DNA from: a virus
DNA length: 64,000 nt
Direction: 5' to 3' (one strand)
Virus record (IMG/VR): IMGVR_UViG_3300045988_128835
Made by a program: the position numbers and the translations under genes
Shown: one piece after another, positions 6,603 to 56,810 of the stretch
How the letters are laid out: every line of letters starts with the position of its first letter
How positions within the stretch are numbered: position 1 is the stretch's first letter
The notes under the pieces: generated by a model
Seen by the model: only the letters and a program-made list of their open reading frames with translations
Databases searched by the model: none
Told to the model about the DNA's origin: nothing

Positions 6603-6604
6603 GT

Positions 6605-8041: not shown

Positions 8042-8072
8042 TTTTTTTATCAACAATTAAATTTTAAAAGTT

Positions 8073-9773: not shown

Positions 9774-9936
9774 ATACAATGGCCCAAGGTTACACTTGGG
9801 CCTAATTGAAGAAATAAAAGCAGCATTCATAGATTTCCTGCCGGCGGAAACAGTGCTTTTAAGTGCTTTACTAATTACGATATTTTTAACATGGATTTTG
9901 GACAAGATTTAGAACCAGAAGAACTGACCAAGCATT

Positions 9937-11808: not shown

Positions 11809-11811
11809 GTC

Positions 11812-14241: not shown

Positions 14242-14579
14242 ACGAAAATGAAATATTTAGATTAAAGGGAAGAATAGCCATATCCAACCTATCACGTGAG
14301 GACAAGGATATGATAAATAGCATCCTTGATGGTATCAATAAAAAGGATGAAGATGAAAAAGGATATCTCTATACCGTGAGAGTAAAACTAAACAACGGAA
14401 GTCTTGCACATGCTACTTTATTTTTTAAAAGCGAGACAGGCCCTACATTTGAAGACTTAAAGAAGGAGCTTGATGATATGGGAATTAAAGATGATGATTA
14501 TAGCGATAGTGGCATAATTATCATTAACCGCATTGTTATGAGCGGAGAAGAATTTGATCGTTTTGTAAAAAAAGAGTGA
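14238..14579 (+). CDS. hypothetical protein
   Basis: 113-aa ORF. Confidence 0.4.
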   Translation: MNENEIFRLKGRIAISNLSREDKDMINSILDGINKKDEDEKGYLYTVRVKLNNGSLAHATLFFKSETGPTFEDLKKELDDMGIKDDDYSDSGIIIINRIVMSGEEFDRFVKKE

Positions 14580-14611
14580 TGGACTATATTAATTAAAACA
14601 ACGATAAAACA

Positions 14612-15355
14612 ATGAAAAAAATGGACAATATTATTATCCTAAAGGGGACAAATGTGGTTATTAACAAAGATGTTTATGCTTATAAAACGTTAGTAGCCAA
14701 AAAAGGGCTTAAGGTTGTGTGTGAAAAAGATATCAAAAAAGGAGATAAGGAAGCCACGCTGTCGTATGAAGGTCGTATGGAGATTGATATACCAGTTGAT
14801 TATATACTAAAGAATGATGATGTCCTTTTCAAAGAAGGAGAATTTCTTTTTGCTAAAAAAGATTATTCTTTTAAAGATGATATTGTTCCTGGGGGAGCTA
14901 TGGTCGAATTGGCAAAAGAGGTCTACAATGTAGATGTTATGGCTGTCATATACTACAAAGGGAAACAGTTTAGCATACCCTTGGATTTGTTAGAACCTGT
15001 TAGTTCAAAAAAAGACAATAATAAAAAAGAAGGGGAATCGGTGAAGAATGACATCATTGACGATAAACTACGATGGGATTTGCTTCCAATGGAAGAGATT
15101 GAGGACATTGTAAAAGTCTATCATGCCGGAGCCAAGAAATATGGGCCTAATAATTGGCAGAATCTTGACAACGGATTTGAACGGTATCGAGCTGCAATGT
15201 TTCGACACCTGATGGAATACATGAAAGGAGAAAGAGTGGATTCCGATACAGGATGTTTTCATCTTGCACAATGTGCATGGAACTGCATAGCTATGCTGTG
15301 GTATGACAAGCATGGAAAAGGGTTGATACCATTAAATAAGGAGGAAAAGAAATGA
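14612..15355 (+). CDS. protein with a C-terminal dATP/dGTP diphosphohydrolase-like (MazG-like) domain
   Basis: RWDLLP...VYHAGAKKYGPNNW...RHL...HLAQCAWNC matches the conserved pattern of phage dNTP pyrophosphohydrolase N-terminal domains (from memory). Confidence 0.5.
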   Translation: MKKMDNIIILKGTNVVINKDVYAYKTLVAKKGLKVVCEKDIKKGDKEATLSYEGRMEIDIPVDYILKNDDVLFKEGEFLFAKKDYSFKDDIVPGGAMVELAKEVYNVDVMAVIYYKGKQFSIPLDLLEPVSSKKDNNKKEGESVKNDIIDDKLRWDLLPMEEIEDIVKVYHAGAKKYGPNNWQNLDNGFERYRAAMFRHLMEYMKGERVDSDTGCFHLAQCAWNCIAMLWYDKHGKGLIPLNKEEKK

Positions 15356-15660
15356 CAATAGAACAACTAAATTATTTATTAAGAAAAGAGCTTTATGCTA
15401 TAAAAAACCATAAAGACAATATTGATAGAATCAAAAAAGAATATTTTGATTCCAATTATGGGTTAAAAGAAGGAGATAAGATCCGTATTTTACACGAAGC
15501 AGGAGATGAAATGATAGGCTTCTTGAAAAAAGTTGAAGTATGTGAAGACGGAGATCTGTACTTGACAATCCAAAAACAAAACGAAAAAGGTGACAGAGGC
15601 AGAGGAATATGGAATATGTATCTATCATCAAAATCAATTAAAATTGAAAAATGTGTATAA
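15352..15660 (+). CDS. hypothetical protein
   Basis: 102-aa ORF. Confidence 0.4.
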   Translation: MTIEQLNYLLRKELYAIKNHKDNIDRIKKEYFDSNYGLKEGDKIRILHEAGDEMIGFLKKVEVCEDGDLYLTIQKQNEKGDRGRGIWNMYLSSKSIKIEKCV

Positions 15661-15664
15661 TGCC

Positions 15665-16840
15665 ATGAGAGTGTTAAGTTTATTTGACGGAATGTCATGT
15701 GGTCAAATAGCGTTAAAAGAAATAGGGATCACACCTGAAGTATATTATGTATCAGAAATAGATAAGTTTGCTATTAAACAAACGCAATTAAATTTCCCTA
15801 ATACTATACAAGTAGGAGATGTAAGGGATTTGAATGTAGAAGATCTTGGACACATAGATCTTATTTTAGCCGGCAGCCCATGTAAGGATATGTCTTTTTC
15901 TGGAAAAAGAAAAGGGTTGTCTACCGTAGAAGGAATAGAAATCAAATCACTTAATGAGTATCTTGAATTAAAAAAACAAGGATTTGAATTTGCCGGTCAG
16001 TCTTACTTATTCTGGGAGTTTATTCGTATTTTGAATGATGTAAGAAAAACTAATCCTGATGTATTGTTTCTTCTTGAGAACGTTAAGATGGGAAAGAAAT
16101 GGGAGCCGGTATTTGATGATGCTATAGGGTGTAAAGGCAATCATATTAATTCAGCACTTGTTTCCGCTCAAACCAGGAAACGTATTTATTGGACTAATAT
16201 TCAAGGCGGCATTATCCCTCAACCTAAAGACGAAGGTTTGACCATAAGTGATATAGCGGAATATGAAGTAGATGAAAAATATTACTTATCTGAAAAAGTT
16301 TTAAACAATTTAGCTTTTCACTTGAAAAGAAATCACGACAAGGGAAATTGTTATGGAGCTAATATTAAAACAAAAGATGAGAAATCCAATACTGTTACCG
16401 TAAAGGGTAAATACATGTACGATCTTATTTGTGTAGCAATGAGAGGTAGGAATCCAGAAAAACCTACATGTAGAGAATCTGGTCTTAAAACAGTTCAGAT
16501 GATTGAATTTAAAAACGATGGAAAATCCAATTGTCTCACAACAGTTCAGAAAGATAATCTTATTTTCCAAATACCAAGAGGATTTAACAAAGGTGGATTT
16601 CATGAAGATAAGGCTCCAACATTATCTTGTAATTCATATGATAGAAACAATTTTATCATACAGAGAGCATTACATGGCGATTTCAGAATAAGAAGATTAA
16701 CCCCTACAGAGTGCTCCAGGTTACAGACTGTACCAGATTGGTATAAATGGGAATGCAGCGAAACCCAACAGTACAAGATGTTGGGGAACGGGTGGACTAT
16801 TAAAGTGATTGAACATATACTTAAAAGAATAAAAGAATAA
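15665..16840 (+). CDS. DNA (cytosine-5)-methyltransferase
   Basis: Motif I LSLFDGMSCG, motif IV GSPCKDMS (the PC dipeptide), motif VI LLENVK; start taken at MRVLSLF (ATG 15665), not the upstream in-frame ATG. Confidence 0.85.
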   Translation: MRVLSLFDGMSCGQIALKEIGITPEVYYVSEIDKFAIKQTQLNFPNTIQVGDVRDLNVEDLGHIDLILAGSPCKDMSFSGKRKGLSTVEGIEIKSLNEYLELKKQGFEFAGQSYLFWEFIRILNDVRKTNPDVLFLLENVKMGKKWEPVFDDAIGCKGNHINSALVSAQTRKRIYWTNIQGGIIPQPKDEGLTISDIAEYEVDEKYYLSEKVLNNLAFHLKRNHDKGNCYGANIKTKDEKSNTVTVKGKYMYDLICVAMRGRNPEKPTCRESGLKTVQMIEFKNDGKSNCLTTVQKDNLIFQIPRGFNKGGFHEDKAPTLSCNSYDRNNFIIQRALHGDFRIRRLTPTECSRLQTVPDWYKWECSETQQYKMLGNGWTIKVIEHILKRIKE

Positions 16841-17382
16841 TGATTAGAGCAAGATTTTACATTAAAAAATCCGACTGCGGTAACGACTACCGTCCAGTCA
16901 AATGGCCTATAAAATATCCATATTGGCGTAGTGGTGAATCCGATGATTCATTCATACTTGTAGTGTATGCCGAAGACGAAGACAGCATAAAAGAGCTGTG
17001 GCCGGAAGCATACGATATTAATGTCTTAGAAAAAGATACTGAGGTTAAATTCACATTAAGATTTCCTAAGCCTAAATGGTATGAATTGCAAGAAGAGAGA
17101 TTAGAAGAGTATGATAAATTATATGGTAAATTCGTATGGGTTACGGACATGTGTCTAAAAGATGGGAAAATAAGAAAGGTAAAAGCCAGAATAGAAGATT
17201 GTGGTGGTCTTTTATTAGCCGACACTCCTGGCCGGTTCACTCCTTATACAATAGGGTATCAAGCTTTTAAAAGTAAAGAAGAAGCTTTGAAATATGCAGA
17301 GGAACAGAGAACGGATTTAATTAAGTCTCTTAAGTTACAAATACATGAACTTGAAAATCTAAAATTTGAATACGATGATTAA
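16840..17382 (+). CDS. hypothetical protein
   Basis: 180-aa ORF. Confidence 0.45.
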   Translation: MIRARFYIKKSDCGNDYRPVKWPIKYPYWRSGESDDSFILVVYAEDEDSIKELWPEAYDINVLEKDTEVKFTLRFPKPKWYELQEERLEEYDKLYGKFVWVTDMCLKDGKIRKVKARIEDCGGLLLADTPGRFTPYTIGYQAFKSKEEALKYAEEQRTDLIKSLKLQIHELENLKFEYDD

Positions 17383-18088
17383 CTATGCAGCAAAAGCCAG
17401 AAAAGCTTATTTGATAAACAATTTCGATAAGATCCTTAACAGTCTCAACACGCTTCATTCAACGGTTGAGACCATGACGTTGTTCGTAAACGACCAGGCT
17501 TATAATTACATTCTTAAGCTAAAGGAAGTAATTAAAACCAGTCCTATGTATAAGCACAATATCAAGCGTCTTTTAAATAATATGGACAAAGAGATAAAGA
17601 GGTACAATGCTTCTATCTACTACATAAATAAAGAGCGTAGTGAGGTTATAGCTGATATAACACAAGCGATGGAAGATTGTCTCATGCCATACATAGACAA
17701 TCTGGCCGGCGCTATAAGGGCAGCCGTGTGGTCGAAGGGTGTGTCCGAGGAGCGGACGGAAGCGGCGGTACTGTCCCTAATCGTATCCTCCTTGGCCACG
17801 ACATCAGGCAGACTTATCTCAGGTGGATATCAGATCATGAAAGAAATGGGTGGGGGTCAAGGTGGTAATCCATTTACGTTTATGAGCATTGATAAGATAA
17901 GACACTTATCTACATCATTATCTGATGCTATTACCGGTGGGGAAATAGCTCTTGAGGAAAAAGAAGCCAATGACATAACTAAGGCAATGGATATTTTTAT
18001 TGAGAAAATGTCTGATTCGGATATTGTTGATAAGGTGATCAGCATACTTGAAGAGGCTGAATCTAAAAATAAGGAGGAGCGATCGTGA
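17366..18088 (+). CDS. hypothetical protein
   Basis: 240-aa ORF. Confidence 0.45.
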   Translation: MNTMINYAAKARKAYLINNFDKILNSLNTLHSTVETMTLFVNDQAYNYILKLKEVIKTSPMYKHNIKRLLNNMDKEIKRYNASIYYINKERSEVIADITQAMEDCLMPYIDNLAGAIRAAVWSKGVSEERTEAAVLSLIVSSLATTSGRLISGGYQIMKEMGGGQGGNPFTFMSIDKIRHLSTSLSDAITGGEIALEEKEANDITKAMDIFIEKMSDSDIVDKVISILEEAESKNKEERS

Positions 18089-18276
18089 ATTATTTGGATG
18101 GGTATGTAGAAGAAGTTCTTTCTGAGCCGTACTATGATGATTATGGCTCTGGGGTTTTTAGGTGGTGGGTGAAAGTGTCTTACGTTTGTGAAGGCATAGG
18201 AGCTGTCACTACCTTAATGTTTGATACGAGAGAAGAAGCAGAGGCAGTAAAAATAGGTTATAAATTTTTATGTTGA
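18085..18276 (+). CDS. small hypothetical protein
   Basis: 63-aa ORF, coupled start. Confidence 0.3.
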   Translation: MNYLDGYVEEVLSEPYYDDYGSGVFRWWVKVSYVCEGIGAVTTLMFDTREEAEAVKIGYKFLC

Positions 18277-18283
18277 AAATAAT

Positions 18284-18520
18284 ATGAGGTATTTTGTTTT
18301 ATTGATGGCACTTGTGTTATCATCATGTTCGCATGATGATAGTCAGGTTAATAACGGATGGGTTATATATGATTTACGTCCTTTACAGGGTGGACGTGTG
18401 ATGTATTATGCTGAAGACGAAAGAATTTCAATATTTAAACATAATAGAATCATAAAATTCGTTAGATACCAAGGGGAATACAATATCGGAGATTCTATTA
18501 AGATCGTGAAAGTAAAATAA
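18284..18520 (+). CDS. putative lipoprotein (signal peptide with lipobox LSSC)
   Basis: MRYFVLLMALVLSSCSHDD. Confidence 0.4.
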   Translation: MRYFVLLMALVLSSCSHDDSQVNNGWVIYDLRPLQGGRVMYYAEDERISIFKHNRIIKFVRYQGEYNIGDSIKIVKVK

Positions 18521-18521
18521 T

Positions 18522-19010
18522 ATGGAAAATAATTTAAAACTCGTATGCCCAAAATGTGGCACCCCTCACCAGCCTCATTCTCCGCACACGATGGATGCAG
18601 ATGGATTTGAAAGGTGTGAGATAAGAACTGTCATGGAAGACAGGGGGTGGTGCTACGAATGCTCTTTTTGGCAAAATATGTACGACAAGCACAAAGACGA
18701 TCCAGGATGGGTTAGGATAGACGGTGAAAGCTGGGTGCTTAAGCCTATGGTGGAAAACGTACCGAGCGGATGGAACAGCCTTGGATGTGGTGGAAGAAAG
18801 ATGTATATCAATATCGAAGGGAAAGGCATTGTTGTATCAAATAACTGCTGGTGCCAAGGTGATGTTTCGGACGCATTCAAGGATCTTATGCCTGATAATG
18901 CTACTTGGGCTACGAAGGAGGAATTTGACAAAGCTCCTGTAGTAGGACATATCATAGAAGGTATTGGTTTAGTTTTCACAGATAGGGGAGGTCATGAAGT
19001 TAATGCTTAG
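18522..19010 (+). CDS. Cys-rich hypothetical protein
   Basis: 162 aa with CPKCG...C...CYEC...C clusters; last gene of the plus-strand block. Confidence 0.45.
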   Translation: MENNLKLVCPKCGTPHQPHSPHTMDADGFERCEIRTVMEDRGWCYECSFWQNMYDKHKDDPGWVRIDGESWVLKPMVENVPSGWNSLGCGGRKMYINIEGKGIVVSNNCWCQGDVSDAFKDLMPDNATWATKEEFDKAPVVGHIIEGIGLVFTDRGGHEVNA

Positions 19011-28581: not shown

Positions 28582-28857
28582 CTATAAATTTAATATTCCG
28601 TTTTTACCAATATGTTTCTTTTCTTCTTCAGTAGGCCATTCTTTCTTGAACTTACCGTGCCACGTTCCAGGAACTACCACCACTTCGCCTCCCTTACTAT
28701 ATTCAATAGCGGCACATTCAGAACAAAGAGGCTTGCCTTCATATCCCTTTAGCGACTTATCGTAAATACGATTCTTACAAGGTCTTATAAGAGCCCAATA
28801 ACAGGATGTGGCTGTATTATCTATACAGCCACATTTTGAACATACAAACAAACTCAT
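28582..28857 (-). CDS. zinc-ribbon protein (CSKCGC...C...CSEC)
   Basis: 91 aa with two CxxC pairs. Confidence 0.45.
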   Translation of the reverse strand: MSLFVCSKCGCIDNTATSCYWALIRPCKNRIYDKSLKGYEGKPLCSECAAIEYSKGGEVVVVPGTWHGKFKKEWPTEEEKKHIGKNGILNL

Positions 28858-29717
28858 CCCGCAATCTCCCAGTCATTAGACATAATATCATGTTCGGTTG
28901 GATTCCAATTTGATGCTACTTTTTGACCTGTATCTACCATCAATATATTTACGTCAAACATACAGATATACTTTTTACCCCAATCGATTCTTTTTATCTT
29001 ACGACCTAATTTAAGCCGTTCTAAAGCCTGTTCGAATGTCATGCCACGACGAGGCAGTTTGAGATACTTTTTAAGTCTGTCGGCAGCTTCATTTGGTGTA
29101 TGGCCATCGTATTCGAAAGCGGTTTCTCTTTCAGGAACATCAAACAAATCCCAGTATTTGCTTTCATAGTGATTAGATACCTGACCGGTAGGCAGGATCG
29201 CCATCACAATAAACCAATCATCAGAACCGAAGCATTTTTCTCCGTCGCTGTGTCTCCTTGATTTGCAAACTTCAACCTGTCCGCTTCTGGCTAATAGATT
29301 AAAGAAGGCAGCGTTATACAACATGCTATACCGATACAATTCATTGAAAGTGTGGTATCCGTCAGAGACTTCTCCCACGTCTACAGGCTTCTTGTTTTGA
29401 ATACTACCCAAAATATTCTCTATATAGAGCTGTATTTTATACATACCCATTTCGGTGTGGCCGTATTTGTTCAAGATATTATTGACATCGTATTGTATAT
29501 TAAAATCTTTTTCAAATTCTACTTCAGGATGATTAGGATAGAAGTAGTCCACTGATGCTTCTAACACTGACTTTACGTGTTCTATTATCCTCGCAACATC
29601 ATCATGTTTAAAAAAATGCTTAAATCTTTCAACGAATTTAATATCTTCGTTGATTGCTGATTCGAACTCTTCTTTTGTCATTACTCTAACCACATCTTTA
29701 AAATCTTTTAATTCCAT
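28854..29717 (-). CDS. hypothetical protein with a C-terminal DUF2829-like (MTFEQALERLKLGRKIKRIDW) phage domain
   Basis: The C-terminal ~60 aa match the MTFxEALxxLKxGKKxRRxxW pattern common in phage proteins. Confidence 0.5.
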   Translation of the reverse strand: MELKDFKDVVRVMTKEEFESAINEDIKFVERFKHFFKHDDVARIIEHVKSVLEASVDYFYPNHPEVEFEKDFNIQYDVNNILNKYGHTEMGMYKIQLYIENILGSIQNKKPVDVGEVSDGYHTFNELYRYSMLYNAAFFNLLARSGQVEVCKSRRHSDGEKCFGSDDWFIVMAILPTGQVSNHYESKYWDLFDVPERETAFEYDGHTPNEAADRLKKYLKLPRRGMTFEQALERLKLGRKIKRIDWGKKYICMFDVNILMVDTGQKVASNWNPTEHDIMSNDWEIAG

Positions 29718-30989: not shown

Positions 30990-32560
30990 AATTTTTAACA
31001 TATTTAGGTAATTATATACAACTTTACACCACAAATATAGGAAATTGTTTTTTTATATATAAATAATAATTCCTATATTTGTGTCATGAGATTAGTTGAA
31101 CAACATATAATCAAACAAAGTTCTGTTTATTACAATGAACTTTATGATCTATTGCATAAGTGTAAAAACTTATACAATAAAGGGTTATATGTTGTTAGAC
31201 AGTATTATTTTCAATACAAGGATGATAATACTGTAAAGTATAAGTACCTAAACTACTATTCTCTTGAAAAGAAGTTAAGAACAGAAAATGATGTTGACTA
31301 TCGTGCTTTACCAGCACCGGTTGCTCAACAAGTATTGATGATGGTAGATAGAAACTTTAAATCTTTCTTCAATCTCTTTAATAAAAAGAATAGAGGTGAG
31401 TATTCTGAGGAAGTAAGAATGCCAAGGTATCTCAACAAGGGTGGTTTGTTTCCTGCTGTTTTTGCAACAAATGCTTTTTCTCAAAAATGGATAAAACAAG
31501 GCATTGTTAAGTTACCAAAACAGTTTTCCTTTACAACAAGAACTAACAAGCAAAATATTCAACAACTTAGATTCATTCCTAAGAATGGGTATATTGTTCT
31601 TGAAATAGTTTACAATAAGAAGGAAAAGAATCTTATGTCCGATAATGGGAACTATCTTGGCATCGACATAGGATTGGATAATTTAGCATCTTGTGTTTCA
31701 AACACCGGTTCTTGTTTTATCATCAATGGTAGACCACTAAAGTCTATTAACCAATATTATAACAAAAGGTTAGCATTCTTAAAATCTAAGTTAAAAGACA
31801 ATAAACAGATTTCAAAACAAATAAGGTCATTAACCGACAAAAGGAATAACAAGATCAAAGACTATCTGCATAAAGCAAGTAGAATATTGGTTAATCATGT
31901 AGTTTCCAATGGTATTAATACGATCATAATCGGTCATAACAAGTGCTGGAAACAAGAGATCAATATTGGAAAGCGTAATAATCAGAACTTTGTATCTATT
32001 CCTTTTAATTCGTTTATCAGTATGATATCGTATAAAGCTACATTAGAAGGTATTAATGTTAAGATCGTTGAAGAATCTTATACTTCAAAATGTAGCTTTT
32101 TAGATAATGAACGGATTTGCAAACATGAATCTTACAAAGGAAGAAGGATTAAACGAGGATTGTTTAAAACCTCGTTTGGTAAGATCATTAATGCTGATAT
32201 CAATGGTGCTTTTAACATCATTAGAAAATCAGAAAAAGAATCCTTTGATGTAACGATGTTACCAGAAGGTAGAGGGTTTTGGTGTAACCCGGTACGAATT
32301 TCCGTATAAATGTGTATTACTTTACACTTTTGGTGTAAAGTGGTATATAATCACCCATTTAGGGTCTTTGTCTATTCTATCTTTCAGTTCATGCAATGCT
32401 GAGTCCATAACCGTATTCGGTACGCCAATCAACTCTCCTATTAAATACAATGGGGTTTTATTCGATTTAGATTCGTGTGCTATATTCATGTCAAAAAAAA
32501 GTTATGTGAAACAAACCGGCCACGGGTATTCTATTGCCCGCCGACCGGTATAATATTTTT
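30990..32560 (+). mobile_element. IS200/IS605-family (IS1341-type, tnpB-only) insertion element on the opposite strand to the surrounding phage genes; approximate boundaries
   Basis: tnpB ORF flanked by subterminal hairpins: left 31033-31083 (CACAAATATAGGAAATT / AATTCCTATATTTGTG) and right ~32320-32345 (CTTTACAC ttttg GTGTAAAG); strand is opposite to its neighbours. Confidence 0.5.
31086..32309 (+). CDS. tnpB: TnpB-like RNA-guided nuclease (IS605 OrfB family, RuvC-like)
   Basis: RuvC-I GIDIGLDN, TSKC...C Cys motif, RuvC-III DINGAFNII (DxNAAxNI-like); 407 aa is a typical length. Confidence 0.75.
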   Translation: MRLVEQHIIKQSSVYYNELYDLLHKCKNLYNKGLYVVRQYYFQYKDDNTVKYKYLNYYSLEKKLRTENDVDYRALPAPVAQQVLMMVDRNFKSFFNLFNKKNRGEYSEEVRMPRYLNKGGLFPAVFATNAFSQKWIKQGIVKLPKQFSFTTRTNKQNIQQLRFIPKNGYIVLEIVYNKKEKNLMSDNGNYLGIDIGLDNLASCVSNTGSCFIINGRPLKSINQYYNKRLAFLKSKLKDNKQISKQIRSLTDKRNNKIKDYLHKASRILVNHVVSNGINTIIIGHNKCWKQEINIGKRNNQNFVSIPFNSFISMISYKATLEGINVKIVEESYTSKCSFLDNERICKHESYKGRRIKRGLFKTSFGKIINADINGAFNIIRKSEKESFDVTMLPEGRGFWCNPVRISV

Positions 32561-49900: not shown

Positions 49901-50920
49901 TCAATCATGTACGGCAGACAAACCACCCGAATCAGGATCATACTTAAGGCCGCATGCCCGTCGATAGTTTTTAAGCGCTCTCTTGTACAAAAACAGCACC
50001 GTCTTGGAAACTATTTTTTTCATGGACTTGGTTAAAACCTCTTCTGTTGAAACAGACATCAGGCAGCTATTCAAGAACGACCTGACATTGGAACCAAACA
50101 GAGTCTTCACCATTTTTCTGAACGACCTAAAAAGATATGATGCCGAAAGGGCCTTTAATCCATTGCGAACCATCCTCTTATTTAAATACGAAACGGCTTT
50201 GTCAGATAAACATAGTCTATTCTTTCCTTCACTGTCCACCTCTGACGAAAACCAAGAATACAAGGTGGTAGGATGTTTCTTGAGATGATTGATAAAGGAA
50301 GTTATAATACCTTCTTTCAAAGCCCTTTTGTGGGCTACGCATGCAGCAATCTTCTCTTCTCTTTTCAAAGAGCTGTCAAGGCATCTAAACACCGTCCTAT
50401 TGTCTCCGATGAAATACTGAGGACGTTCTTCCTTAAACTTAGCCCGGTATGCGGCATATCCTTCCTTACGGAGCATATCTATCTGAGACCGGATATAGAA
50501 CCTTACACACTTTTCTTCGGCTTCTTGCACGCTTTTAAGATAAGGAACTGACTTTCTTCCATATCGAAGATAGTCATAAACCATAGCCTCTATGAAGTCA
50601 TTGTACGGAAAGAATCTTCCAAAACCAAAGTTCCAAACTATGAAACATCGCACTCTATCTTTCCAGTAATCAGATATGAGAAAGTTGCTACAATATCTCA
50701 ACTCCCTGTCTTTCTGATAGAAATGATGAGTATGTTTGTCATAAAATAGATTAAAATATCTCAAATTGCCTAAACACTGACCGGCTGGACGGCGTACTAC
50801 ATTGTACCCTAAGTTGCTGAAGCTATTGTATATAACTTCTATCGGAGAGACCTGCTCTTTCTTAAAGAGCTTGTCGTGTAACTTGTGAGGATCTATTATT
50901 TCATTTAATTTTGTCTCCAT
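49901..50920 (-). CDS. basic hypothetical protein (339 aa), orphan between the virion genes; weak HUH-like (KHTHHFY) and GIY-like (VIY...GYNV) strings only
   Basis: ORF with no recognisable domain; adjacent to a hairpin-rich non-coding region. Confidence 0.55.
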   Translation of the reverse strand: METKLNEIIDPHKLHDKLFKKEQVSPIEVIYNSFSNLGYNVVRRPAGQCLGNLRYFNLFYDKHTHHFYQKDRELRYCSNFLISDYWKDRVRCFIVWNFGFGRFFPYNDFIEAMVYDYLRYGRKSVPYLKSVQEAEEKCVRFYIRSQIDMLRKEGYAAYRAKFKEERPQYFIGDNRTVFRCLDSSLKREEKIAACVAHKRALKEGIITSFINHLKKHPTTLYSWFSSEVDSEGKNRLCLSDKAVSYLNKRMVRNGLKALSASYLFRSFRKMVKTLFGSNVRSFLNSCLMSVSTEEVLTKSMKKIVSKTVLFLYKRALKNYRRACGLKYDPDSGGLSAVHD

Positions 50921-50987
50921 GATTATTTTATTGTTTTAGTGCAAAGATATGGTTTTTCATCATACGCTCAAAGAAGAAAATGCACGG

Positions 50988-51033
50988 CCTTGTATCCGGT
51001 TTGAGAGAAATAGGATACAAGGTTTTTTGTTTT
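50988..51033 (+). terminator. plus-strand rho-independent terminator (10-bp stem CCTTGTATCC/GGATACAAGG, then TTTTTTGTTTT)
   Basis: Seen directly; oriented against the surrounding minus-strand genes. Confidence 0.5.
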
Positions 51034-51245
51034 ATGACGGTTTGGATAAGAGACGGGAAAACGACTCTGAACGTAACCGCCTGACCGTCAGTGGTGGGAC
51101 AACAAATCTTGAATTAAAACTACGCCTATGAATAGTCTCCGTTTTCCTTAATATTAAGACCATTTTCAATGATCTTACTCATTATATTATTTATATTATT
51201 TTATATACTTTACCATTTATTCATATAATTGTTTATAGTGAATGA

Positions 51246-51419
51246 ACTTAACGACCGAAGGGAGTTAAGTGAGTGAACGGATTGACAAATTACTTTTTCC
51301 GTCATTGTATTGTTCGCCTAATTGTGTTAAAAGATTGAGTATCGTGACCAAAGGGAACGATGCGAAAGAACTTATAATATTTAAAAACGACTGAACCTAT
51401 CGACTGAAGGGAGATAGGT
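51246..51419. repeat. three hairpins (51246-51270, 51341-51361, 51395-51419) with a conserved 11-nt loop GAC[CT][GA]AAGGGA and covarying stems
   Basis: Stems ACTTAAC/GTTAAGT, ATCGT/ACGAT and ACCTATC/GATAGGT differ in sequence but keep their pairing; the loops are near-identical. Confidence 0.6.
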
Positions 51420-51579
51420 GATGGAGTGACGTTAATAGTTATATTAGGTAGCCAGTGGAGAATTAGGCAGGCTGGTAGGCGAGACGGGCGTCCATGCCCG
51501 TCAGGACAGTGGAGGTACGTAGGTCTGTTCTGTTAAACCAAGGCGATGATAGTTCCATCCTTCACGAAATCGCACAAAA

Positions 51580-51646
51580 AAGCCGGATTATCTTGATATC
51601 GTTCTTCAACCTCCGGTATCCGCATAACGAGTCTCAAATCCGGCTT
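51580..51646 (-). terminator. long hairpin (AAGCCGGAT...ATCCGGCTT) followed by UUUUUGUG on the minus strand, downstream of the 806-aa gene
   Basis: 9-bp closing stem seen, with a U-run on the minus strand. Confidence 0.45.
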
Positions 51647-51679
51647 CGCTTTATTAATATGAGAAATAAAATAATTGTT

Positions 51680-54100
51680 CTAATTGTCAGTGACGCCTTT
51701 AATGCGAAGTTGTATATTGGGAAGCACGGCATTAATCAAAGCCATTTTCTTATCCTCTTCGCTTTCTTTTTCATGCTGTTTATACATCATGCTGTAATCA
51801 CTGTCATCACCATCCTTTTTCCCGTCTAACGTCAGTAAATGATTTACGATGTCCTTACCATACGTTTCAGTCCATGTACGGAATCTCTCTTCCTCGGACT
51901 GTCCCTCCTGGGACGGGGCTTCCGGGTTAGGAAGGGCGGCTGCCACTTCTACCTCTGGAAGTGTTACCGATGCTGCTATTTCAGCATCATCTCCGAATCC
52001 CATTTGACCATACGAAGATACGGAATTTTCTTCAATTTCCAAACCAAGATTTTTAGCAACCTCCATAGCATAATTATAACGGTCATCGTTTCTTATAACA
52101 CTCTTATGAGGACGTCCTGCTCCTTGGTTCCAAGCTACTACAGCATCTTTAAGGTTATCGGCGTTCATGAAGTCCTGCCGGCTGTAGTTGTAATACCCTG
52201 GTCCTTCTTTTCCTTTTCTTGTGTATAAGAAATTAGAATATCCGGTTTTCCCTTCGTATTCATCAGCTAAGAACTCAAGTTGGTCTTTGAATGTTGGTGT
52301 AGAATGACCTTTCTTTTTGGCGTGCTTGAATAGCTTATCCATGCGCTCATTATGCCATTGCTGTATGCCGTATGATGTTCTGTTGTCTCCGTATATGTCA
52401 TCTTTAAGACCGGATTCAGCCATGAGGTTACCTATGATGGCGAGCGCCTGTATTTTAGACATGCCTCGCTTTCCAGTAAAGTATTCATATGCTTCACGCT
52501 GTTTGCCAATTACGCCACCTTCTTTTTTAATATTAGTATTGTACCTCTTTCCATTCCACGTAAATTCCTTAAGACCTCTTTTCCTGGCTTCTTTAAAGGC
52601 TTCGCCTCTTGTAGTGGAAATCGGGTCTTGTAATTCAAGATCGTTTTTTATACCAAGAATGGCATTAATAATATTATCATCCTTTTTATCATCATCATCT
52701 AATTTATCAACATTATTCGAAACGTAAGATTGGCTTATCAAGTTTGATACGCTCTTTCTGTTTTTATAAGTTCCTTCTTTATCTGATGGAGCTTCAAAAG
52801 CATATACAAGTGGATACGAATAATCCGTATCTGGATCTTCTGACATAAATTCGTTTACTGCATGAATAGCTTTTTTGTATTTAGTATCTTTTATACTATA
52901 CTTCCCAGCATCTTGAACATGATCATAAAATCTGTCTATCATGTAGTTGATATATCCACGCTTATCGCTCTTAAATCTTTCTTTATCTCTTTCAAACTCT
53001 TTTGGCGGATATCTTTTATAATATTCTTGAAAAAGTCCCCTAAATTTTCCATCCTCAGATACAGCGTAGGGGTTTCCACCAGATTCTTCAATAATATTTC
53101 CAAGTACGGCTTCTATCTGGCGTTGATTAAAACCTTTATCATATAAAGCATCATAGATCATATTCATCCCTTCTACGTCCATAGTACGATGCTTACCCTT
53201 ACCCACACGCTTCATATTTTCATATTTGGATTTGAATAAATCCCAATCTATTTCCGGCTTAGAAGACTCCCCTCCTTGTTTTTTGGATCTTATCTCCATC
53301 CTTTTATCCAAATCATTCTTGGAATCAATAATGGATCTAAACAGGATCTTGTTTGGATCGCTCTCTTCGTATGGGATTTTATCTTCCACATAATCCCTGA
53401 TTTCAAAAGGATATCCTATTGCATCAAGAGTCTTAGTAACAATCCCTACTTTAATAGGTTGATCATTCCTATAAAAATCATACTTATCCTTTACGACCAT
53501 CCTGCCTTTATCATCACGGTACATGGTAAAACTTGATAAGCCTGACAAATCATTTAAATCGCCGTAAGCATCCGGTATAAAATTGTATTCGTTAAATACC
53601 TGATGTTCTCCGGTTCTGGCTTTTTTTAAAAGATCTATCCCCTCTTCCACGATTCCAAGTTTCCTGCTCGTTACATCCCTTAACTCCTCCAAATCAGATA
53701 CGTCCTTGCCTGCAACTTTTCCATCAATTATCTTATTATCTAAAGAATCAAGCTCCCTTCCATATTTTTTAGCCATTTTCTCCCACCCACCATTTATCCT
53801 GTCAGATATAATGGATTTGATATTGTCTGGTATTCTGACAATCCCATTTTCTTCTTTCAGATTATTTGGTTGGTTTAAGAATCTAAACCAAAGATTCTGA
53901 CTAAAATCATCTACATTGGCTTTCGGAACATCTTGACCAAAAAATTCCATTATTTTGGTTTTTAATCCTCTTTCATTAGCATACACATCAGGTGTTATAT
54001 TAGATGCCAGATATTCTCTAAGTTTTACAAACGGACCAATTTTATTCCATAATGTTTTTGGTTGTTTGTCCTTTACATAATTTTTAATTTTCTTTGCCAT
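51680..54100 (-). CDS. virion protein with two lysozyme-like (phage tail lysozyme / glucosaminidase-like) domains
   Basis: Two repeats of a GNhhxESGxNP...G(L/I)(F/Q)QW-like pattern (AVLGNIIEESGGNPYA...RGLFQ and AIIGNLMAESGLKDD...YGIQQW). Confidence 0.5.
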   Translation of the reverse strand: MAKKIKNYVKDKQPKTLWNKIGPFVKLREYLASNITPDVYANERGLKTKIMEFFGQDVPKANVDDFSQNLWFRFLNQPNNLKEENGIVRIPDNIKSIISDRINGGWEKMAKKYGRELDSLDNKIIDGKVAGKDVSDLEELRDVTSRKLGIVEEGIDLLKKARTGEHQVFNEYNFIPDAYGDLNDLSGLSSFTMYRDDKGRMVVKDKYDFYRNDQPIKVGIVTKTLDAIGYPFEIRDYVEDKIPYEESDPNKILFRSIIDSKNDLDKRMEIRSKKQGGESSKPEIDWDLFKSKYENMKRVGKGKHRTMDVEGMNMIYDALYDKGFNQRQIEAVLGNIIEESGGNPYAVSEDGKFRGLFQEYYKRYPPKEFERDKERFKSDKRGYINYMIDRFYDHVQDAGKYSIKDTKYKKAIHAVNEFMSEDPDTDYSYPLVYAFEAPSDKEGTYKNRKSVSNLISQSYVSNNVDKLDDDDKKDDNIINAILGIKNDLELQDPISTTRGEAFKEARKRGLKEFTWNGKRYNTNIKKEGGVIGKQREAYEYFTGKRGMSKIQALAIIGNLMAESGLKDDIYGDNRTSYGIQQWHNERMDKLFKHAKKKGHSTPTFKDQLEFLADEYEGKTGYSNFLYTRKGKEGPGYYNYSRQDFMNADNLKDAVVAWNQGAGRPHKSVIRNDDRYNYAMEVAKNLGLEIEENSVSSYGQMGFGDDAEIAASVTLPEVEVAAALPNPEAPSQEGQSEEERFRTWTETYGKDIVNHLLTLDGKKDGDDSDYSMMYKQHEKESEEDKKMALINAVLPNIQLRIKGVTDN

Positions 54101-54610: not shown

Positions 54611-56245
54611 TTAAATCTTAATCTTCTTAATTTCATCAATCATATTCTTATATCCGCAGAACTTGCTGTTAATAACATCGAAGATAGATTCTGACCAGCC
54701 AGCTATGTTCAAGATATTAGATCCTCTGTAAAACATCTCACTTCCATATCCTTGAATAGAAATAGAAACGATTTTGCAATTTGGATTCACTTTCTTGAAC
54801 CCTTTCAAAAGTTCGGCGAATTTGCCATATCCATAACTGGAACTTTTCTCCCATACAACAGATTCACCGTCTCCTATCTGCATATCTGAAATAACGTACA
54901 AGTTATCTACTTTGATCTTATCTTTAACGCACTTATCCAAGAATGCAAAAAGACCGTTTTCAGTGTCACCACCGCATTCTCCTCCGGCAGTAAAAGATTT
55001 TTTGTTATTCCATAAAACACCTTTACTTCTATCATATTCGTAATTGATAAGTTTGTCACCAAACATACCAATAAATACGTCAGGAAGCACAGAAGCAATC
55101 ATACAGCCAAACAAGTTGCCAATGACAGCCGTACTTGTTTTGCTAAAGGCAGACACCTCAGAAGATCCTCCCATATCTCCACGTACAGAGCCAGAGTGGT
55201 CAATCAGGATAGCCGACCGCCCCTCCAATACCGGCAGGTTCTTGCAGGAGATGGTTATGGCTTTCTCCAACGCATCTAAAATCTTATATTTGTTACGCGC
55301 TGTTAATTTAGCACGTTTTTTATCCGACTCAAATACAATATCATTATCGGAACCATCAGTGCCTATATTTTCAACCTCTTTGAAAGCTGAAGCAAAACGG
55401 AAAGGAAGCATCTTCGAATTAAGCACCTTCTCTTCTATTGTAAGCTGCCTACAAACTTCATCTATTTGATCAGGTGCGTATTTGATTATGTTTACAAGAT
55501 TACGAACCATATTAAAAATAGGCATACCTTTTACATTAGAAACCACGTCCCGAATAGCGTCACCTAAAGCTTCTTTCTTTTCCTTATTGTCTTTCTTATC
55601 CTGACCGGCCTTAGACATCTCTTTTTCAAGAATCTTGCTTTCGTATAATCCAGACAAAGATCGACCTTCTATAAGATACTGGAAAGCTGTTTTATTAACC
55701 TGATTGCTTTTGGGGTGAAATAAATTCACAAGATCAATCATCGTAATAACCCTACTGTCCATCTTGTACTTGTCAATCCGATACGGATCAAGACCTTCCA
55801 GGGCCGTCTTAAACCCTTTCTTAATAGCGCTGGATATTCCTCTTAACTTCTTTGGATTTTTGTCGTTAAGAGCCGCATAGCAGCCAAGGATTTCGCTCAT
55901 ATCATCAGGACGCATAACGATCTTATTATAGAACCTTGAAGCCCATTCCTTACCCGATGCTTTGCTGGCAAGGACAGAAGCCATAAGATGCGTTACCGAC
56001 CTAAGCTTTCCTTCTTTCCTGACATACAATGCTGTTTGTGCTGCGAAATATGGATCTACTTGATCCATAAGGTCCTTAATCCTGTTCACCTTGTCTTTTT
56101 CTTTCTCATAATAAGAATCAGACAACATGGTAGTCATTACCGTAGATACCAACTCTTCTTCTGCGTTAGGCTTATACGCCTTCTCTCCCATGTGATTCAC
56201 GATCGTAGGTTTAACACCTTCATCCTTTTTGTTAAACTTTCCCAT
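54611..56245 (-). CDS. rsr: Ro60/Rsr orthologue (TROVE domain plus C-terminal vWA domain with MIDAS motif DHSGS)
   Basis: 544 aa (Rsr proteins are about 530); C-terminal ILIDHSGSV...; N-terminal helical-repeat region; adjacent tRNA-like non-coding RNAs. Confidence 0.7.
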   Translation of the reverse strand: MGKFNKKDEGVKPTIVNHMGEKAYKPNAEEELVSTVMTTMLSDSYYEKEKDKVNRIKDLMDQVDPYFAAQTALYVRKEGKLRSVTHLMASVLASKASGKEWASRFYNKIVMRPDDMSEILGCYAALNDKNPKKLRGISSAIKKGFKTALEGLDPYRIDKYKMDSRVITMIDLVNLFHPKSNQVNKTAFQYLIEGRSLSGLYESKILEKEMSKAGQDKKDNKEKKEALGDAIRDVVSNVKGMPIFNMVRNLVNIIKYAPDQIDEVCRQLTIEEKVLNSKMLPFRFASAFKEVENIGTDGSDNDIVFESDKKRAKLTARNKYKILDALEKAITISCKNLPVLEGRSAILIDHSGSVRGDMGGSSEVSAFSKTSTAVIGNLFGCMIASVLPDVFIGMFGDKLINYEYDRSKGVLWNNKKSFTAGGECGGDTENGLFAFLDKCVKDKIKVDNLYVISDMQIGDGESVVWEKSSSYGYGKFAELLKGFKKVNPNCKIVSISIQGYGSEMFYRGSNILNIAGWSESIFDVINSKFCGYKNMIDEIKKIKI

Positions 56246-56335: not shown

Positions 56336-56466
56336 AATGAGGGAAAACCTGAAGTTAGTGTAAACAATCAAATAATGGATTTGAACCATTGACACATATC
56401 TTAAAAGGATATTGCTCTACCATCTGAGCTAAATTCGAAGTAACTAACCCCATCACCACTCATTAG
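56336..56466 (-). ncRNA. Y-RNA-like RNA 1: a tRNA-like body (D arm GCTC-AGATGGTA-GAGC, anticodon arm with UUU, T arm AATGG-TTCAAAT-CCATT) with no canonical acceptor stem, held in a long stem (GTTAGT/ACTAAC and AATGAG/CTCATT)
   Basis: Folded by hand from the reverse complement; the 5' leader carries the GTGGTGATGG motif. Confidence 0.5.
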
Positions 56467-56586
56467 TTTCTTATGTCTTTCAAACAGAGGAAAAGCGGAG
56501 ACGGAGAATTAAAATGATATATCGGCCTCATTCGAAGTAACCGTACTCCTCACCATCTGTATATTTTATTAAAACAGGGATAACTT

Positions 56587-56700
56587 GGAAGGTGTTTTAA
56601 AGGAGGTTTTGATCTACCAACTGATCTAATTTTTCTTACATGAAAAATACAGGACTCGAACCTGTGACACAAACCGAAGTATCACCTTCCATCACCACTG
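56587..56700 (-). ncRNA. Y-RNA-like RNA 2 (YrlA-like permuted tRNA module): T arm ACAGG-TTCGAGT-CCTGT, then a 7-bp acceptor-like hairpin ATTTTTC-atgtaa-GAAAAAT, then UA and D arm GATC-AGTTGGTA-GATC; closed by stem GGAAGGTG/CACCTTCC
   Basis: Folded by hand; 5' leader motif CAGTGGTGATGG. Confidence 0.55.
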
Positions 56701-56810
56701 TTTTTGTATTATAATCTCTCTTGATTACGATGCAAATATAGACATTCAAATATGATTTACAAATTAAAATGATTTAAAATAGATTAATTTGAATAAATTA
56801 ACACACAGAC

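What the first reader, a model, noticed from the sequence alone, without database searches (positions are those of the whole stretch)
51246..51419. Three covarying hairpins with a conserved 11-nt loop in a 760-bp non-coding region
Hairpins at 51246-51270, 51341-51361 and 51395-51419 have different stem sequences (ACTTAAC/GTTAAGT, ATCGT/ACGAT, ACCTATC/GATAGGT) that each pair perfectly. Their loops are nearly identical (GACCGAAGGGA, GACCAAAGGGA, GACTGAAGGGA). That pattern points to selection for structure plus a sequence-specific loop: a protein- or polymerase-recognition element (operator, origin iteron, hairpin promoter for a virion RNA polymerase, or packaging signal), not a terminator, since no U-tract follows. 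Copies 1 and 3 are also followed by GAGTGA(A)CG.
Basis: seen in the sequence. Interest (0 to 1): 0.6.

Follow-up and report, generated by a model that had tools for sequence, protein, structure and literature searches.

The report
Gut phage RNA with GA-studded hairpins
The three hairpins are real, conserved with compensating mutations in related gut phages, and most likely belong to a previously undescribed structured non-coding RNA that always sits beside the same unknown phage gene; what it does is still unknown.

Summary
Each hairpin is a 41-nt rod (51238-51278, 51331-51371, 51387-51427, + strand). In it, six invariant GA dinucleotides are placed to form three tandem G.A pairs between covarying Watson-Crick helices. 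The "11-nt loop" is really a tandem G.A, a 2-bp mini-helix and a GNA/RAA triloop.

Only three copies occur in the 64-kb window. No hairpin copy was found in 185,579 prokaryote species genomes. Homologous hairpins occur in four diverged lineages of crAss-like phages. They are always upstream of, and divergent from, a gene of one small unannotated protein family (339 aa here).

This non-coding-region-plus-gene cassette occurs at two loci in many genomes of this phage species. The second copy is absent from csAssE-Sib. G.U wobbles (113 cells against 4 A.C) and folding energies put the structure on the + strand.

Best reading: the hairpins are the 5' half of a structured non-coding RNA of roughly 300-400 nt that carries repeated protein-binding rods. 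Transcription is not shown and the function is inferred. The main rival is a single-stranded-DNA signal, because the hairpin caps obey the CGNAG DNA mini-hairpin rule seen in RSF1010 ssiA and in phage N4 promoters. Terminators, double-stranded operators or iterons, Y RNA, K-turns and CsrB-type sponges are rejected. Nothing matches in Rfam.

The parts
51238..51278 (+). GA-rod hairpin 1: GU-[GA]-AU-[GA]-ACUUAAC-[GA]-CC-GAA-GG-[GA]-GUUAAGU-[GA]-GU-[GA]-AC
   Evidence: Covariance model hit of 66.7 bits. The minimum-free-energy fold is exactly this rod, -11.7 kcal/mol, z -4.25. Covariation.
51331..51371 (+). GA-rod hairpin 2: 7-bp stem GUAUCGU/ACGAUGC, cap GA-CC-AAA-GG-GA. Most relatives have a GAA triloop here.
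   Evidence: 57 bits; -11.8 kcal/mol, z -4.83. Three compensatory stem pairs against L127. The triloop position 51350 varies A/G within the species.
51387..51427 (+). GA-rod hairpin 3: stem ACCUAUC/GAUAGGU, cap GA-CU-GAA-GG-GA
   Evidence: 60.2 bits; -12.6 kcal/mol, z -3.68. G51409A in 16 of 61 relatives turns the U.G pair into U-A.
51130..51237 (+). AT-rich (81% A+T) region upstream of hairpin 1, the most conserved stretch of the interval. It holds a sigma-70-like TTTATA-18-TATAAT (51200-51229). It is a candidate promoter region; the transcription start is not known.
   Evidence: Composition. Within-species variability 0.007-0.017 per site against 0.02-0.04 in the flanking genes. Promoter scan scores 10 of 12.
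51224..51229 (+). TATAAT hexamer 8 nt upstream of rod 1. Equivalent hexamers lie 8 nt upstream of rod 2 (CCTAAT, 51317-51322) and rod 3 (TATAAT, 51373-51378).
   Evidence: 49-nt direct repeat 51224-51272 / 51373-51421, 76% identical; sequence read.
51314..51320 (+). UCGCCUA, the candidate 5' strand of a long-range helix with UAGGCGA at 51476-51482
   Evidence: RNAalifold columns 201-207 with 414-420. Type B sequences have UUGUUUA, which keeps pairing through G.U. Only one-sided changes are seen, so support is weak.
51448..51509 (+). G-rich 3' domain with blocks conserved across lineages: GUAGCCA, GGCAGG, GUAGGCGAG, a covarying hairpin 51483-51502 (GACGGGC/GCCCGUC) and CAGGACAG
   Evidence: Invariant blocks in alignment A2. 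Helix 9 has 3 pairs with compensatory changes. G 36% against C 17% over 51428-51530.
51581..51645 (.). Long hairpin AGCCGGAUU...AAUCCGGCU with an A-run before it and a U-rich stretch after it. It is a terminator of the minus-strand lysozyme gene and the likely 3' boundary of the + strand unit.
   Evidence: Sequence; folded in both strands; conserved in L127.
50988..51028 (.). Fourth covarying hairpin, CCUUGUAUCC/GGAUACAAGG, with a conserved loop (GGUUUGAGAGAAAUA) and a U6 run on the + strand. It is a terminator-like boundary between the unit and the promoter of the 339-aa gene.
   Evidence: The stems differ but pair fully in types A, B and D and in L290; L346 has one C.G mismatch. The loop consensus is GUUUGnGAnAAAUA in A, B and L290, and is more diverged in D and L346.
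50942..50972 (-). Bacteroidetes-type promoter of the 339-aa gene: -33 TTTG (50969-50972) and -7 TATCTTTG (50942-50949), 21 nt before the ATG
   Evidence: A TAnnTTTG box sits at nearly the same position (within 10 nt) in all six lineages. The same layout heads two other minus-strand operons.
49901..50920 (-). 339-aa protein of a small phage-only family of unknown function. It is always adjacent to, and divergent from, the hairpin region.
   Evidence: No Pfam, PHROG or NCBIfam match. Only 22 cluster representatives among 1.8 billion proteins. Hairpin regions confirmed next to the gene; similar layout without rods.

Best explanation
The three hairpins are the 5' half of a structured element that folds as a single strand of the + strand. 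It is most likely a non-coding RNA of about 300-400 nt. The RNA would start near 51237 and end at or before the hairpin at 51581-51645, antisense to the surrounding virion genes and bracketed by two terminator-like hairpins.

Each hairpin is a 41-nt 'GA-rod'. Short covarying Watson-Crick helices are interrupted by three invariant GA/GA steps, placed to form tandem sheared G.A pairs, and capped by a 2-bp helix with a GNA triloop. The rods are followed by a G-rich domain with a further covarying hairpin.

Shown here: the structure, its strand, its conservation and its linkage to the 339-aa gene family.

Inferred: (1) it is transcribed; (2) the rods are repeated shape-specific binding sites for a protein, the leading candidate being the co-inherited 339-aa basic protein, so that RNA and protein form a ribonucleoprotein. 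The variable number of rods (2 to 3, with one partial duplication) fits an array of binding sites better than one rigid fold.
For: Observation and specificity: 3 motif matches against 0.09 expected. The covariance model finds only these three sites in the window. In IMG/VR, 201 of 245 pattern matches are perfect 7-bp hairpins, and nearly all lie in about 75 contigs that are 93.5-98% identical to the window; the unpaired matches are singletons in other contigs. None of the 29 matches in 185,579 prokaryote species genomes pairs as a hairpin.

Structure: on 13 distinct units, 93.5% of cells pair against 72% in shuffles and 35-46% in slid controls. Ten of 13 pairs show compensatory changes and all six GA dinucleotides are invariant. 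On the 20-sequence alignment, 98.6% pair against 36-48% slid, with 14 compensatory pairs.

Strand: 113 G.U cells against 4 A.C. Rods fold at -11.7 to -12.6 kcal/mol on the + strand against -4.7 to -7.3 on the minus strand. The within-species stem variants seen in the pattern scan (C to U, A to G) keep pairing only on the + strand.

Homologues: types A', B and L290 carry 2-3 such hairpins on the same relative strand, upstream of homologues of the 339-aa gene.

Cassette behaviour: two copies lie on the same contigs. The second copy is absent from csAssE-Sib.

Insulated unit: terminator-like hairpins sit on both sides.

Precedent: the crAss-like phage phi14:2 makes abundant long non-coding RNAs of unknown function from long intergenic regions (bioRxiv 10.1101/2020.03.07.982082).

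Rod number varies: L238 lacks rod 2, L218 has a partial duplication, and L290 has two.
Against: There is no expression data. No Bacteroidetes-type TAnnTTTG promoter precedes rod 1 in any lineage, although the phage uses such promoters for minus-strand operons. Only an E. coli-like TATAAT is present. The + strand terminator is weak in type A and not evident in type B or L290.

The long-range helix is supported only by one-sided C/U changes. G.T wobbles, tandem G.A pairs and CGNAG caps are also stable in single-stranded DNA (PMC13037366).

Confidence: 0.5

Rival explanations
1. The hairpins act in single-stranded DNA. They extrude or are exposed next to the AT-rich region and are recognised by a primase (a single-strand initiation signal at an origin, as in RSF1010 ssiA or G4 oric) or by the virion RNA polymerase (an N4-like hairpin promoter). 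As template-strand hairpins on the + strand they would direct synthesis towards the 339-aa gene.
Against: No such hairpin precedes any of the + strand replication or early-type genes, or occurs anywhere else in 64 kb. The 339-aa gene has its own host-type promoter, and a terminator-like hairpin lies between it and the rods. Elaborate 41-nt rods, a conserved G-rich domain with its own covarying hairpin 60-250 nt away, and flanking terminators are more typical of an RNA gene. Two origins with two initiators in one genome, one of them dispensable, is unusual. phi14:2 early transcripts share no motif. The structural and Pfam hints for the protein are at noise level.
Confidence: 0.22
2. The region encodes an antisense or insulator transcript whose job is to pair with read-through minus-strand RNA between the lysozyme gene and the next operon. 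The hairpins serve only as stabilising or kissing elements, as in phage lambda OOP or ColE1 RNA I/RNA II. This includes the variant in which the RNA is a replication pre-primer.
For: The unit is the only + strand feature inside a 30-kb block of minus-strand genes and lies between two operons. It has three 5' stem-loops followed by a G-rich stretch, as in ColE1 RNA II (established knowledge). Terminators bracket it.
Against: An antisense function needs no invariant GA steps and no covarying caps. The same element keeps its structure while its sequence and flanking genes change (type B locus). No complementary target other than its own locus was found.
Confidence: 0.12
3. The hairpins are ligands of the phage Ro60/Rsr protein encoded 3.2 kb away, that is, Y-RNA-like modules.
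For: An Rsr gene with a TROVE domain lies at 54611-56245. The cap ACCGAAGG resembles the GNCGAAN0-1G motif proposed to contact Rsr (PMC4201824).
Against: Rfam YrlA does not hit the region, but it does hit 56582-56692 next to rsr on the rsr strand. The hairpins are on the opposite strand. The motif fails at its first position and in the GCGAAGC, ACGUAGU and CUGAAGG variants. No gene with a TROVE hit lies within 10 kb of the type B or L127 copies.
Confidence: 0.04
4. The hairpins are double-stranded DNA sites (operators or iterons) for a DNA-binding protein, or ordinary transcription terminators or attenuators.
For: The elements are repeated near a promoter region. Direct repeats TTATTCAT occur in the AT-rich part in types B and A'.
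Against: The half-sites change sequence but keep complementarity, which double-stranded recognition does not require. There is strong strand asymmetry: G.U against A.C, and GA steps. No U-run follows any rod.
Confidence: 0.04

Closest known systems
Phage N4 virion-RNA-polymerase early promoters (DNA hairpins)
   Same: Three hairpins with differing 5-7-bp stems. The caps are of the CG(G/A)AG mini-hairpin type with 3-nt purine-rich loops. The phage carries a virion-packaged RNA polymerase.
   Different: N4 hairpins are short, lie upstream of early genes and are read by a T7-like polymerase. Here the hairpins are 41-nt rods with GA steps, all within 190 nt, with no downstream + strand gene. The crAss-type polymerase is unrelated to T7-like enzymes. 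No such hairpins precede other genes.
Single-strand initiation signals (RSF1010 ssiA/ssiB; G4 oric)
   Same: The cap sequence CCGAAGG is identical to that of ssiA. G4 oric also has three hairpins on one strand. An AT-rich stretch is adjacent.
   Different: ssiA and ssiB lie on opposite strands next to iterons. No RepB'-like primase was identified. The site is 32 kb from the replication genes. A conserved G-rich domain and flanking terminators are not part of ssi signals.
Multi-hairpin protein-sponge or scaffold RNAs (CsrB/RsmZ; Y RNA)
   Same: Several similar stem-loops with conserved caps in one small RNA. The number of repeats varies between relatives. This is the proposed mode of action (repeated protein binding).
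   Different: CsrA sites need a single-stranded GGA in the loop, whereas here the GGA is not conserved and the cap is base-paired. Y RNAs bind Ro60 through a terminal helix and are matched by Rfam models; this element is not.
K-turn / box C/D and K-loop motifs
   Same: Tandem G.A steps next to helices, often preceded by U (UGA...GA).
   Different: There is no 3-nt bulge and no C-stem/NC-stem asymmetry. The GA steps recur every 4 nt or 9 nt inside a continuous rod. No box C (RUGAUGA) / box D (CUGA) pair is present.
Type III toxin-antitoxin RNAs (ToxI/ToxN)
   Same: An RNA made of repeated structured units, genetically linked to one protein gene in a small cassette that is variably present.
   Different: ToxI repeats are identical, tandem and co-directional with toxN. 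Here the units differ, are irregularly spaced and are divergent from the gene. The protein has no similarity to ToxN-like nucleases and no conserved catalytic residues across the family.
ColE1 RNA II pre-primer
   Same: A transcript of about 400-550 nt with three 5' stem-loops followed by a G-rich segment.
   Different: No antisense RNA I-like partner over the hairpins and no evidence of an origin. There is no sequence or model similarity.

Membership tests
Rho-independent terminator | G+C-rich stem-loop followed directly by a U-run | tested here: not met
   No T-run follows any of the three hairpins. The scan finds 0 terminators in 50500-52000.
Any Rfam 15 family | Covariance-model match at or near the gathering score | tested here: not met
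   No relevant hit at E up to 10 in 50800-51800 or in the type B homologue.
Y RNA / YrlA | Match to RF02553 with a tRNA-like domain, within 4 kb of rsr and on the same strand | tested here: not met
   No YrlA hit in the region. The hairpins are on the strand opposite to rsr. A YrlA-like hit (35.5 bits) lies elsewhere, at 56582-56692 on the minus strand.
Y RNA / YrlA | GNCGAAN0-1G motif (PMC4201824) | tested here: not met
   ACCGAAGG fails at position 1. The variants CUGAAGG, GCGAAGC and ACGUAGU do not fit.
N4-type hairpin promoter | 5-7-bp stem with a 3-nt purine-rich loop in the template strand | tested here: inconclusive
   The cap CC-GAA-GG on a 7-bp stem resembles it. However, a GA step separates the cap from the stem, and the unit extends to 41 nt.
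N4-type hairpin promoter | Located upstream of early genes that the virion polymerase transcribes; several sites per early region | tested here: not met
   There is only one cluster in 64 kb and none before the + strand genes. The nearest downstream gene has a host-type promoter.
N4-type hairpin promoter | Specific initiation by the virion polymerase on the hairpin | not testable with these tools
   Needs in vitro transcription. The phi14:2 enzyme uses single-stranded DNA, but no promoter motif is known for it.
Single-strand initiation signal (ssi) / origin | Hairpin with a stable mini-hairpin cap recognised by a primase, adjacent to an unwinding element | tested here: inconclusive
   The CCGAAGG cap and the AT-rich neighbour are present. 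No cognate primase was identified and no origin evidence exists.
K-turn / box C/D | 3-nt bulge followed by tandem G.A pairs between a C stem and an NC stem | tested here: not met
   GA steps are present, but both strands are symmetric and there is no bulge. In the GAAUC/GUGA variants, the U-to-C change at the 3' end of the stem keeps the rod register and breaks the K-turn register (units listed; the register comparison is my own).
CsrB/RsmZ-type sponge | Conserved single-stranded GGA in the hairpin loops | tested here: not met
CRISPR array / solitary repeat units | Near-identical repeats at regular spacing | tested here: not met
   Stems differ and spacing is 93 and 56 nt. There is no CRISPR hit on the hairpins.
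Type III antitoxin RNA | Tandem identical repeats upstream of, and co-directional with, an endoribonuclease toxin gene | tested here: not met
   The units are divergent in orientation and non-identical. The protein has no nuclease signature.

The most novel reading that the evidence does not exclude
The GA-rods could be the first recognition signal known for the replication or transcription machinery of crAss-like phages. In this reading they are single-stranded-DNA hairpins capped by CGNAG mini-hairpins, on which the phage primase or the virion-packaged polymerase initiates. That polymerase is related to RNA-interference polymerases and in phi14:2 transcribes only single-stranded DNA efficiently in vitro. 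The adjacent 339-aa protein would help to open or load the site.
Probability: 0.12. Interest if true: 0.88.

Novelty: new variant of a known kind. Interest (0 to 1): 0.62.

Why it matters
crAss-like phages are among the most abundant viruses of the human gut, and almost nothing is known about their non-coding functions. This element is well supported by covariation, matches nothing in Rfam, and occurs in more than a hundred assembled genomes of one gut phage species and in at least three further lineages.

It has an unusual architecture: helices punctuated at fixed steps by tandem G.A pairs. It is inherited as a unit with a protein family of unknown function. That gives a concrete RNA-protein (or DNA-protein) pair to test.

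If the single-stranded-DNA reading were right, it would bear on an open question: how the crAss virion RNA polymerase or the replication machinery finds its start sites.

Tried and rejected
- **Rfam.** Gathering and E up to 10 thresholds on the window, the region and the type B homologue gave nothing relevant. ARAGORN found only tRNA-Lys elsewhere.
- **GenBank phages.** Only csAssE-Sib matches, by DNA or by the 339-aa protein. The lysozyme matches other phages only through its enzyme domain.
- **Literature.** There is no paper on csAssE-Sib. Searches for crAss non-coding RNA and for tandem G.A hairpins found no description.
- **Search for the L290-type cap in IMG/VR.** Only single matches in unrelated contigs, probably chance.
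- **phi14:2 long intergenic regions.** Scanned with the hairpin model, no match.
- **Hammerhead and box C/D readings of the UGA...GA flanks.** The spacing does not fit (period 4 instead of 3) and Rfam is silent.
- **Small ORFs.** The 41-aa GTG ORF 51269-51394, and a 53-aa gene called in L127, are not conserved. The window equivalent of the L127 gene stops after 5 codons.
- **A shared 9-mer.** GGUGAUGGA occurs after rod 3 and in the Y-RNA-like leaders. By my rough estimate, about one such shared 9-mer is expected by chance between regions of this size.
- **Target-site duplications or terminal repeats at the ends of the type B insertion.** None seen.

Full report
**Where the window comes from.** The window is 96% identical to phage csAssE-Sib (OR575929.1), a 151-kb Caudoviricetes phage from the human gut. 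I call it crAss-like because its annotation uses crAss-type terms such as 'muzzle protein'. The finding lies in a 760-bp interval (50921-51679) between two minus-strand genes. One is an 806-aa tail lysozyme (51680-54100). The other is a 339-aa protein with no family assignment (49901-50920).

**The observation.** The three hairpins are at the stated coordinates with the stated stems and loops. GACYRAAGGGA occurs three times in 64 kb against 0.09 expected. One-mismatch variants occur at chance frequency.

Each hairpin is larger than described. Hairpin 2 has a 7-bp stem (GUAUCGU/ACGAUGC). In all three the stem is flanked on both sides by GA. The '11-nt loop' reads GA / 2 bp / 3-nt loop / 2 bp / GA. 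Two more GA steps lie in the flanks.

The unit is therefore NN-GA-NN-GA-N7-GA-NN-NNN-NN-GA-N7'-GA-NN-GA-NN, 41 nt in all (51238-51278, 51331-51371, 51387-51427). ViennaRNA folds each unit into exactly this rod on the + strand: -11.7 to -12.6 kcal/mol, z -3.7 to -4.8. The minus-strand versions reach only -4.7 to -7.3. The 5'-GA-3'/3'-AG-5' geometry is that of tandem sheared G.A pairs. That is established RNA and DNA structural knowledge and was not tested here.

**Is it more than chance, and is it conserved?** An exact scan of IMG/VR for TGA-N7-GACYRAAGGGA-N7-GA gave 245 matches in the 120 stretches returned. The distribution was bimodal. 201 matches have 7 of 7 stem pairs, and nearly all of these lie in about 75 contigs that are 93.5-98% identical to the window. 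The 45 singleton matches in other contigs pair at 1-5 positions in all but two cases, as chance predicts. Within this species the interval is at least as conserved as the flanking genes. The stem variants seen in the pattern scan keep pairing only on the + strand: C to U giving U.G, A to G giving G.U. G51409A, present in 16 of 61 sequences, converts the U.G of the cap helix of hairpin 3 into U-A.

**More distant relatives.** These were reached through the 339-aa protein.
- L127/L128: 83% protein identity, lysozyme upstream.
- L122-L126: about 60% identity, different neighbours.
- L290: 42% identity.

All three groups have a long non-coding region upstream of the gene with two or three hairpins of the same design on the same relative strand. 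Their stems differ. Some carry a fourth GA step plus a U.U pair in the stem (GAAUC/GUGA). Their caps read CC-GUA-GG, CC-GGA-GG, GC-GAA-GC, AC-GUA-GU and, in L290, C-GUGA-G. So the 2-bp cap helix itself covaries, and the triloop is GNA or a GNRA tetraloop.

Thirteen distinct units were counted.
- 93.5% of cells pair, against 72% after shuffling and 35-46% with slid partners.
- Ten of 13 pairs show changes on both sides.
- All six GA dinucleotides are invariant.

On a 20-sequence alignment of the whole region, 98.6% of cells pair against 36-48% slid, with 14 compensatory pairs. Among paired cells there are 113 G.U and only 4 A.C, which points strongly to the + strand. One caveat applies: the structure was derived on that strand.

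A covariance model of the unit finds only the three sites in the window, at 57-67 bits, with the next hit at 11.6 bits. A scan of one genome for each of 185,579 prokaryote species gave 29 matches. This is about the number I expect by chance, and none of them pairs. The motif is therefore specific to this phage lineage.

**What else is in the interval.**
- Downstream of the rods lies a G-rich domain (G 36%, C 17%). It has blocks that are invariant across lineages (GUAGCCA, GGCAGG, GUAGGCGAG, CAGGACAG) and a covarying hairpin at 51483-51502.
- A possible long-range helix joins 51314-51320 (UCGCCUA) to 51476-51482 (UAGGCGA). It is kept through G.U in type B, but only one-sided changes support it.
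- Upstream of rod 1 lies a 110-bp AT-rich stretch, the most conserved part of the interval.
- Each rod is preceded at 8 nt by TATAAT, CCTAAT or TATAAT.
- The unit is bracketed by two hairpins that look like bidirectional terminators, at 51581-51645 and 50988-51028. The second has different stems in five lineages, fully pairing in four of them, and a loop consensus GUUUGnGAnAAAUA that is clearest in types A, B and L290.
- The 339-aa gene has a canonical Bacteroidetes promoter: -33 TTTG and -7 TAnnTTTG, 21 nt before the ATG. The box sits at nearly the same place in all six lineages. Two other minus-strand operon heads in the window have the same layout.
- No TAnnTTTG box precedes rod 1 in any lineage.

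**Linkage to the gene.** The protein family is tiny: 22 cluster representatives among 1.8 billion. In the four closer lineages the hairpin region accompanies the gene. More remote members (L288, L346) keep the general layout, with the conserved-loop hairpin, an AT-rich stretch and a purine-rich region, but have no recognisable rods.

In many IMG/VR genomes of this species the cassette (non-coding region plus gene, about 1.85 kb) is present twice, about 36 kb apart, with 60% protein identity between the copies. An example is contig 3300045988_098998. The second copy sits between a DUF6808-like gene and a 292-aa structural gene. It is missing from csAssE-Sib, where 39 unrelated bases occupy its place. 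No target-site duplication was seen.

The number of rods also varies. L238 lacks rod 2, L218 has a partial duplication of it, and L290 has two.

**Interpretation.** The data show a single-stranded, + strand-specific, conserved structure. I favour an RNA gene for four reasons.
1. The unit is insulated by terminator-like hairpins.
2. It contains several further conserved elements over about 300 nt.
3. It is the only + strand feature in a 30-kb block of minus-strand genes.
4. Another crAss-like phage is known to make abundant long non-coding RNAs of unknown function from long intergenic regions.

Repeated rods with invariant non-canonical steps, and a variable number of them, are best explained as repeated binding sites for a protein. 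The co-inherited 339-aa protein is the obvious candidate, but this step is inference.

**The main rival.** The main rival is action as single-stranded DNA. The caps follow the C-G-N(N)-A-G rule of extraordinarily stable DNA mini-hairpins. CCGAAGG is the cap of RSF1010 ssiA, which is recognised by RepB' primase. GGA/GAA-capped mini-hairpins are the phage N4 virion-polymerase promoters (PMC13037366). In addition, the phi14:2 virion polymerase transcribes single-stranded DNA in vitro and has no known promoter.

Four points count against this rival.
1. The hairpins occur at one place only, and not before any other gene of the window.
2. The nearest gene has its own host-type promoter behind a terminator-like hairpin.
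3. The element extends well beyond a local hairpin.
4. phi14:2 early transcripts share no upstream motif.

Sequence alone cannot settle RNA against DNA. Strand-specific transcript mapping would.

**Other readings rejected.**
- Terminators: no U-run follows the rods.
- Double-stranded operators or iterons: these do not explain compensatory changes or strand asymmetry.
- K-turn or box C/D: there is no bulge.
- CsrB-type sponge: the GGA is not conserved and is paired.
- Y RNA: no model hit, wrong strand, motif not met. No gene with a TROVE hit lies within 10 kb of the type B or L127 copies.

A Y-RNA-like element does exist elsewhere, directly upstream of the phage Ro60 gene.

**Verdict.** This is a real, well-supported structured element that matches no described RNA family. 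Its function is unknown. It most likely acts as a protein-binding non-coding RNA, with a credible single-stranded-DNA alternative.

Noticed in passing
window 56366-56720 (minus strand), upstream of rsr (54611-56245): Three tandem modules share a leader (C/G)AG(U/A)GGUGA(U)GG...UACUUCG(A/G). Module 1 is a sub-threshold Rfam YrlA (Y-RNA-like) hit at 56582-56692 (35.5 bits, E 1e-5). Module 2 is an intact tRNA-Tyr in csAssE-Sib, but most of its body is missing in the window (46-nt gap in the alignment). Module 3 is tRNA-Lys(UUU) at 56366-56439. The tRNAs appear to be embedded in Y-RNA-like stems next to a phage Ro60 gene.
   Followed up: partly
The stems differ in five lineages and pair fully in four of them. 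The loop consensus GUUUGnGAnAAAUA is clearest in types A, B and L290. A U-run follows on the + strand and a weaker U-rich stretch on the minus strand. It sits just upstream of the -33 box of the 339-aa gene. A conserved loop is unusual for a plain terminator.
   Followed up: partly
window 50906-50913 (+ strand): A TAnnTTTG box lies on the + strand inside the first codons of the 339-aa gene, in four of six lineages. Together with the terminator-like hairpin at 50988-51028 it could define a + strand small RNA of about 105 nt, antisense to the gene's promoter and 5' end. The box may also just reflect lysine codons.
   Followed up: no
L124 9180-11085 versus L285 (csAssE-Sib) 7577-7677: A second, paralogous copy of the cassette (hairpin region plus a 348-aa gene, about 1.85 kb) is present in many genomes of the species and absent from csAssE-Sib. 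No target-site duplication or terminal repeats were seen.
   Followed up: partly
window, minus-strand operon heads at 27095, 36778 and 50920; + strand genes 189-19010: Bacteroidetes-type promoters (TAnnTTTG 17-22 nt before the ATG) head the minus-strand virion-gene operons; a terminator-like hairpin precedes two of them (27095 and 50920). No + strand gene in 189-19010 (the replication-type block) has such a box within 80 nt. This suggests a different promoter type or polymerase for that block.
   Followed up: partly
window 51428-51530; L124 9245-9440 (minus strand): The 3' domain is rich in (Y)AGG repeats (GCAGG, GUAGG, AUAGG). I counted about 9 in the window and about 18 in type B by eye. Their meaning is unknown; a protein-binding array or G-quadruplex potential are possibilities.
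   Followed up: no
window 28854-29717 (minus), 31086-32309 (+), 14612-16840 (+): Accessory genes were seen: a WDGH plus Tad2-like (anti-Thoeris) protein, a TnpB (OrfB_IS605 / Cas12f-like TNB), a dATP/dGTP diphosphohydrolase-domain protein next to a C5 cytosine methylase, and an SPFH/flotillin protein (8073-9773). A WDGH/Tad2-like gene also lies near the remote family member in L346.
   Followed up: no
L218 1701-2170 and L238 1804-2273 (IMG/VR type B copies): There are natural variants of the element. L218 has a 22-nt duplication inside hairpin 2. L238 has lost hairpin 2 together with the 5' strand of the proposed long-range helix, and also has a 4-nt deletion at the 3' partner.
   Followed up: no
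L288 3440-3600 (locus + strand) and L346 2600-2640 (minus strand): Remote family members (18-22% protein identity) have no GA-rods. They do carry repeated GAGCGAA / GUGAAGCGAAG motifs in the equivalent non-coding region. In L288 these are on the gene strand.
   Followed up: no
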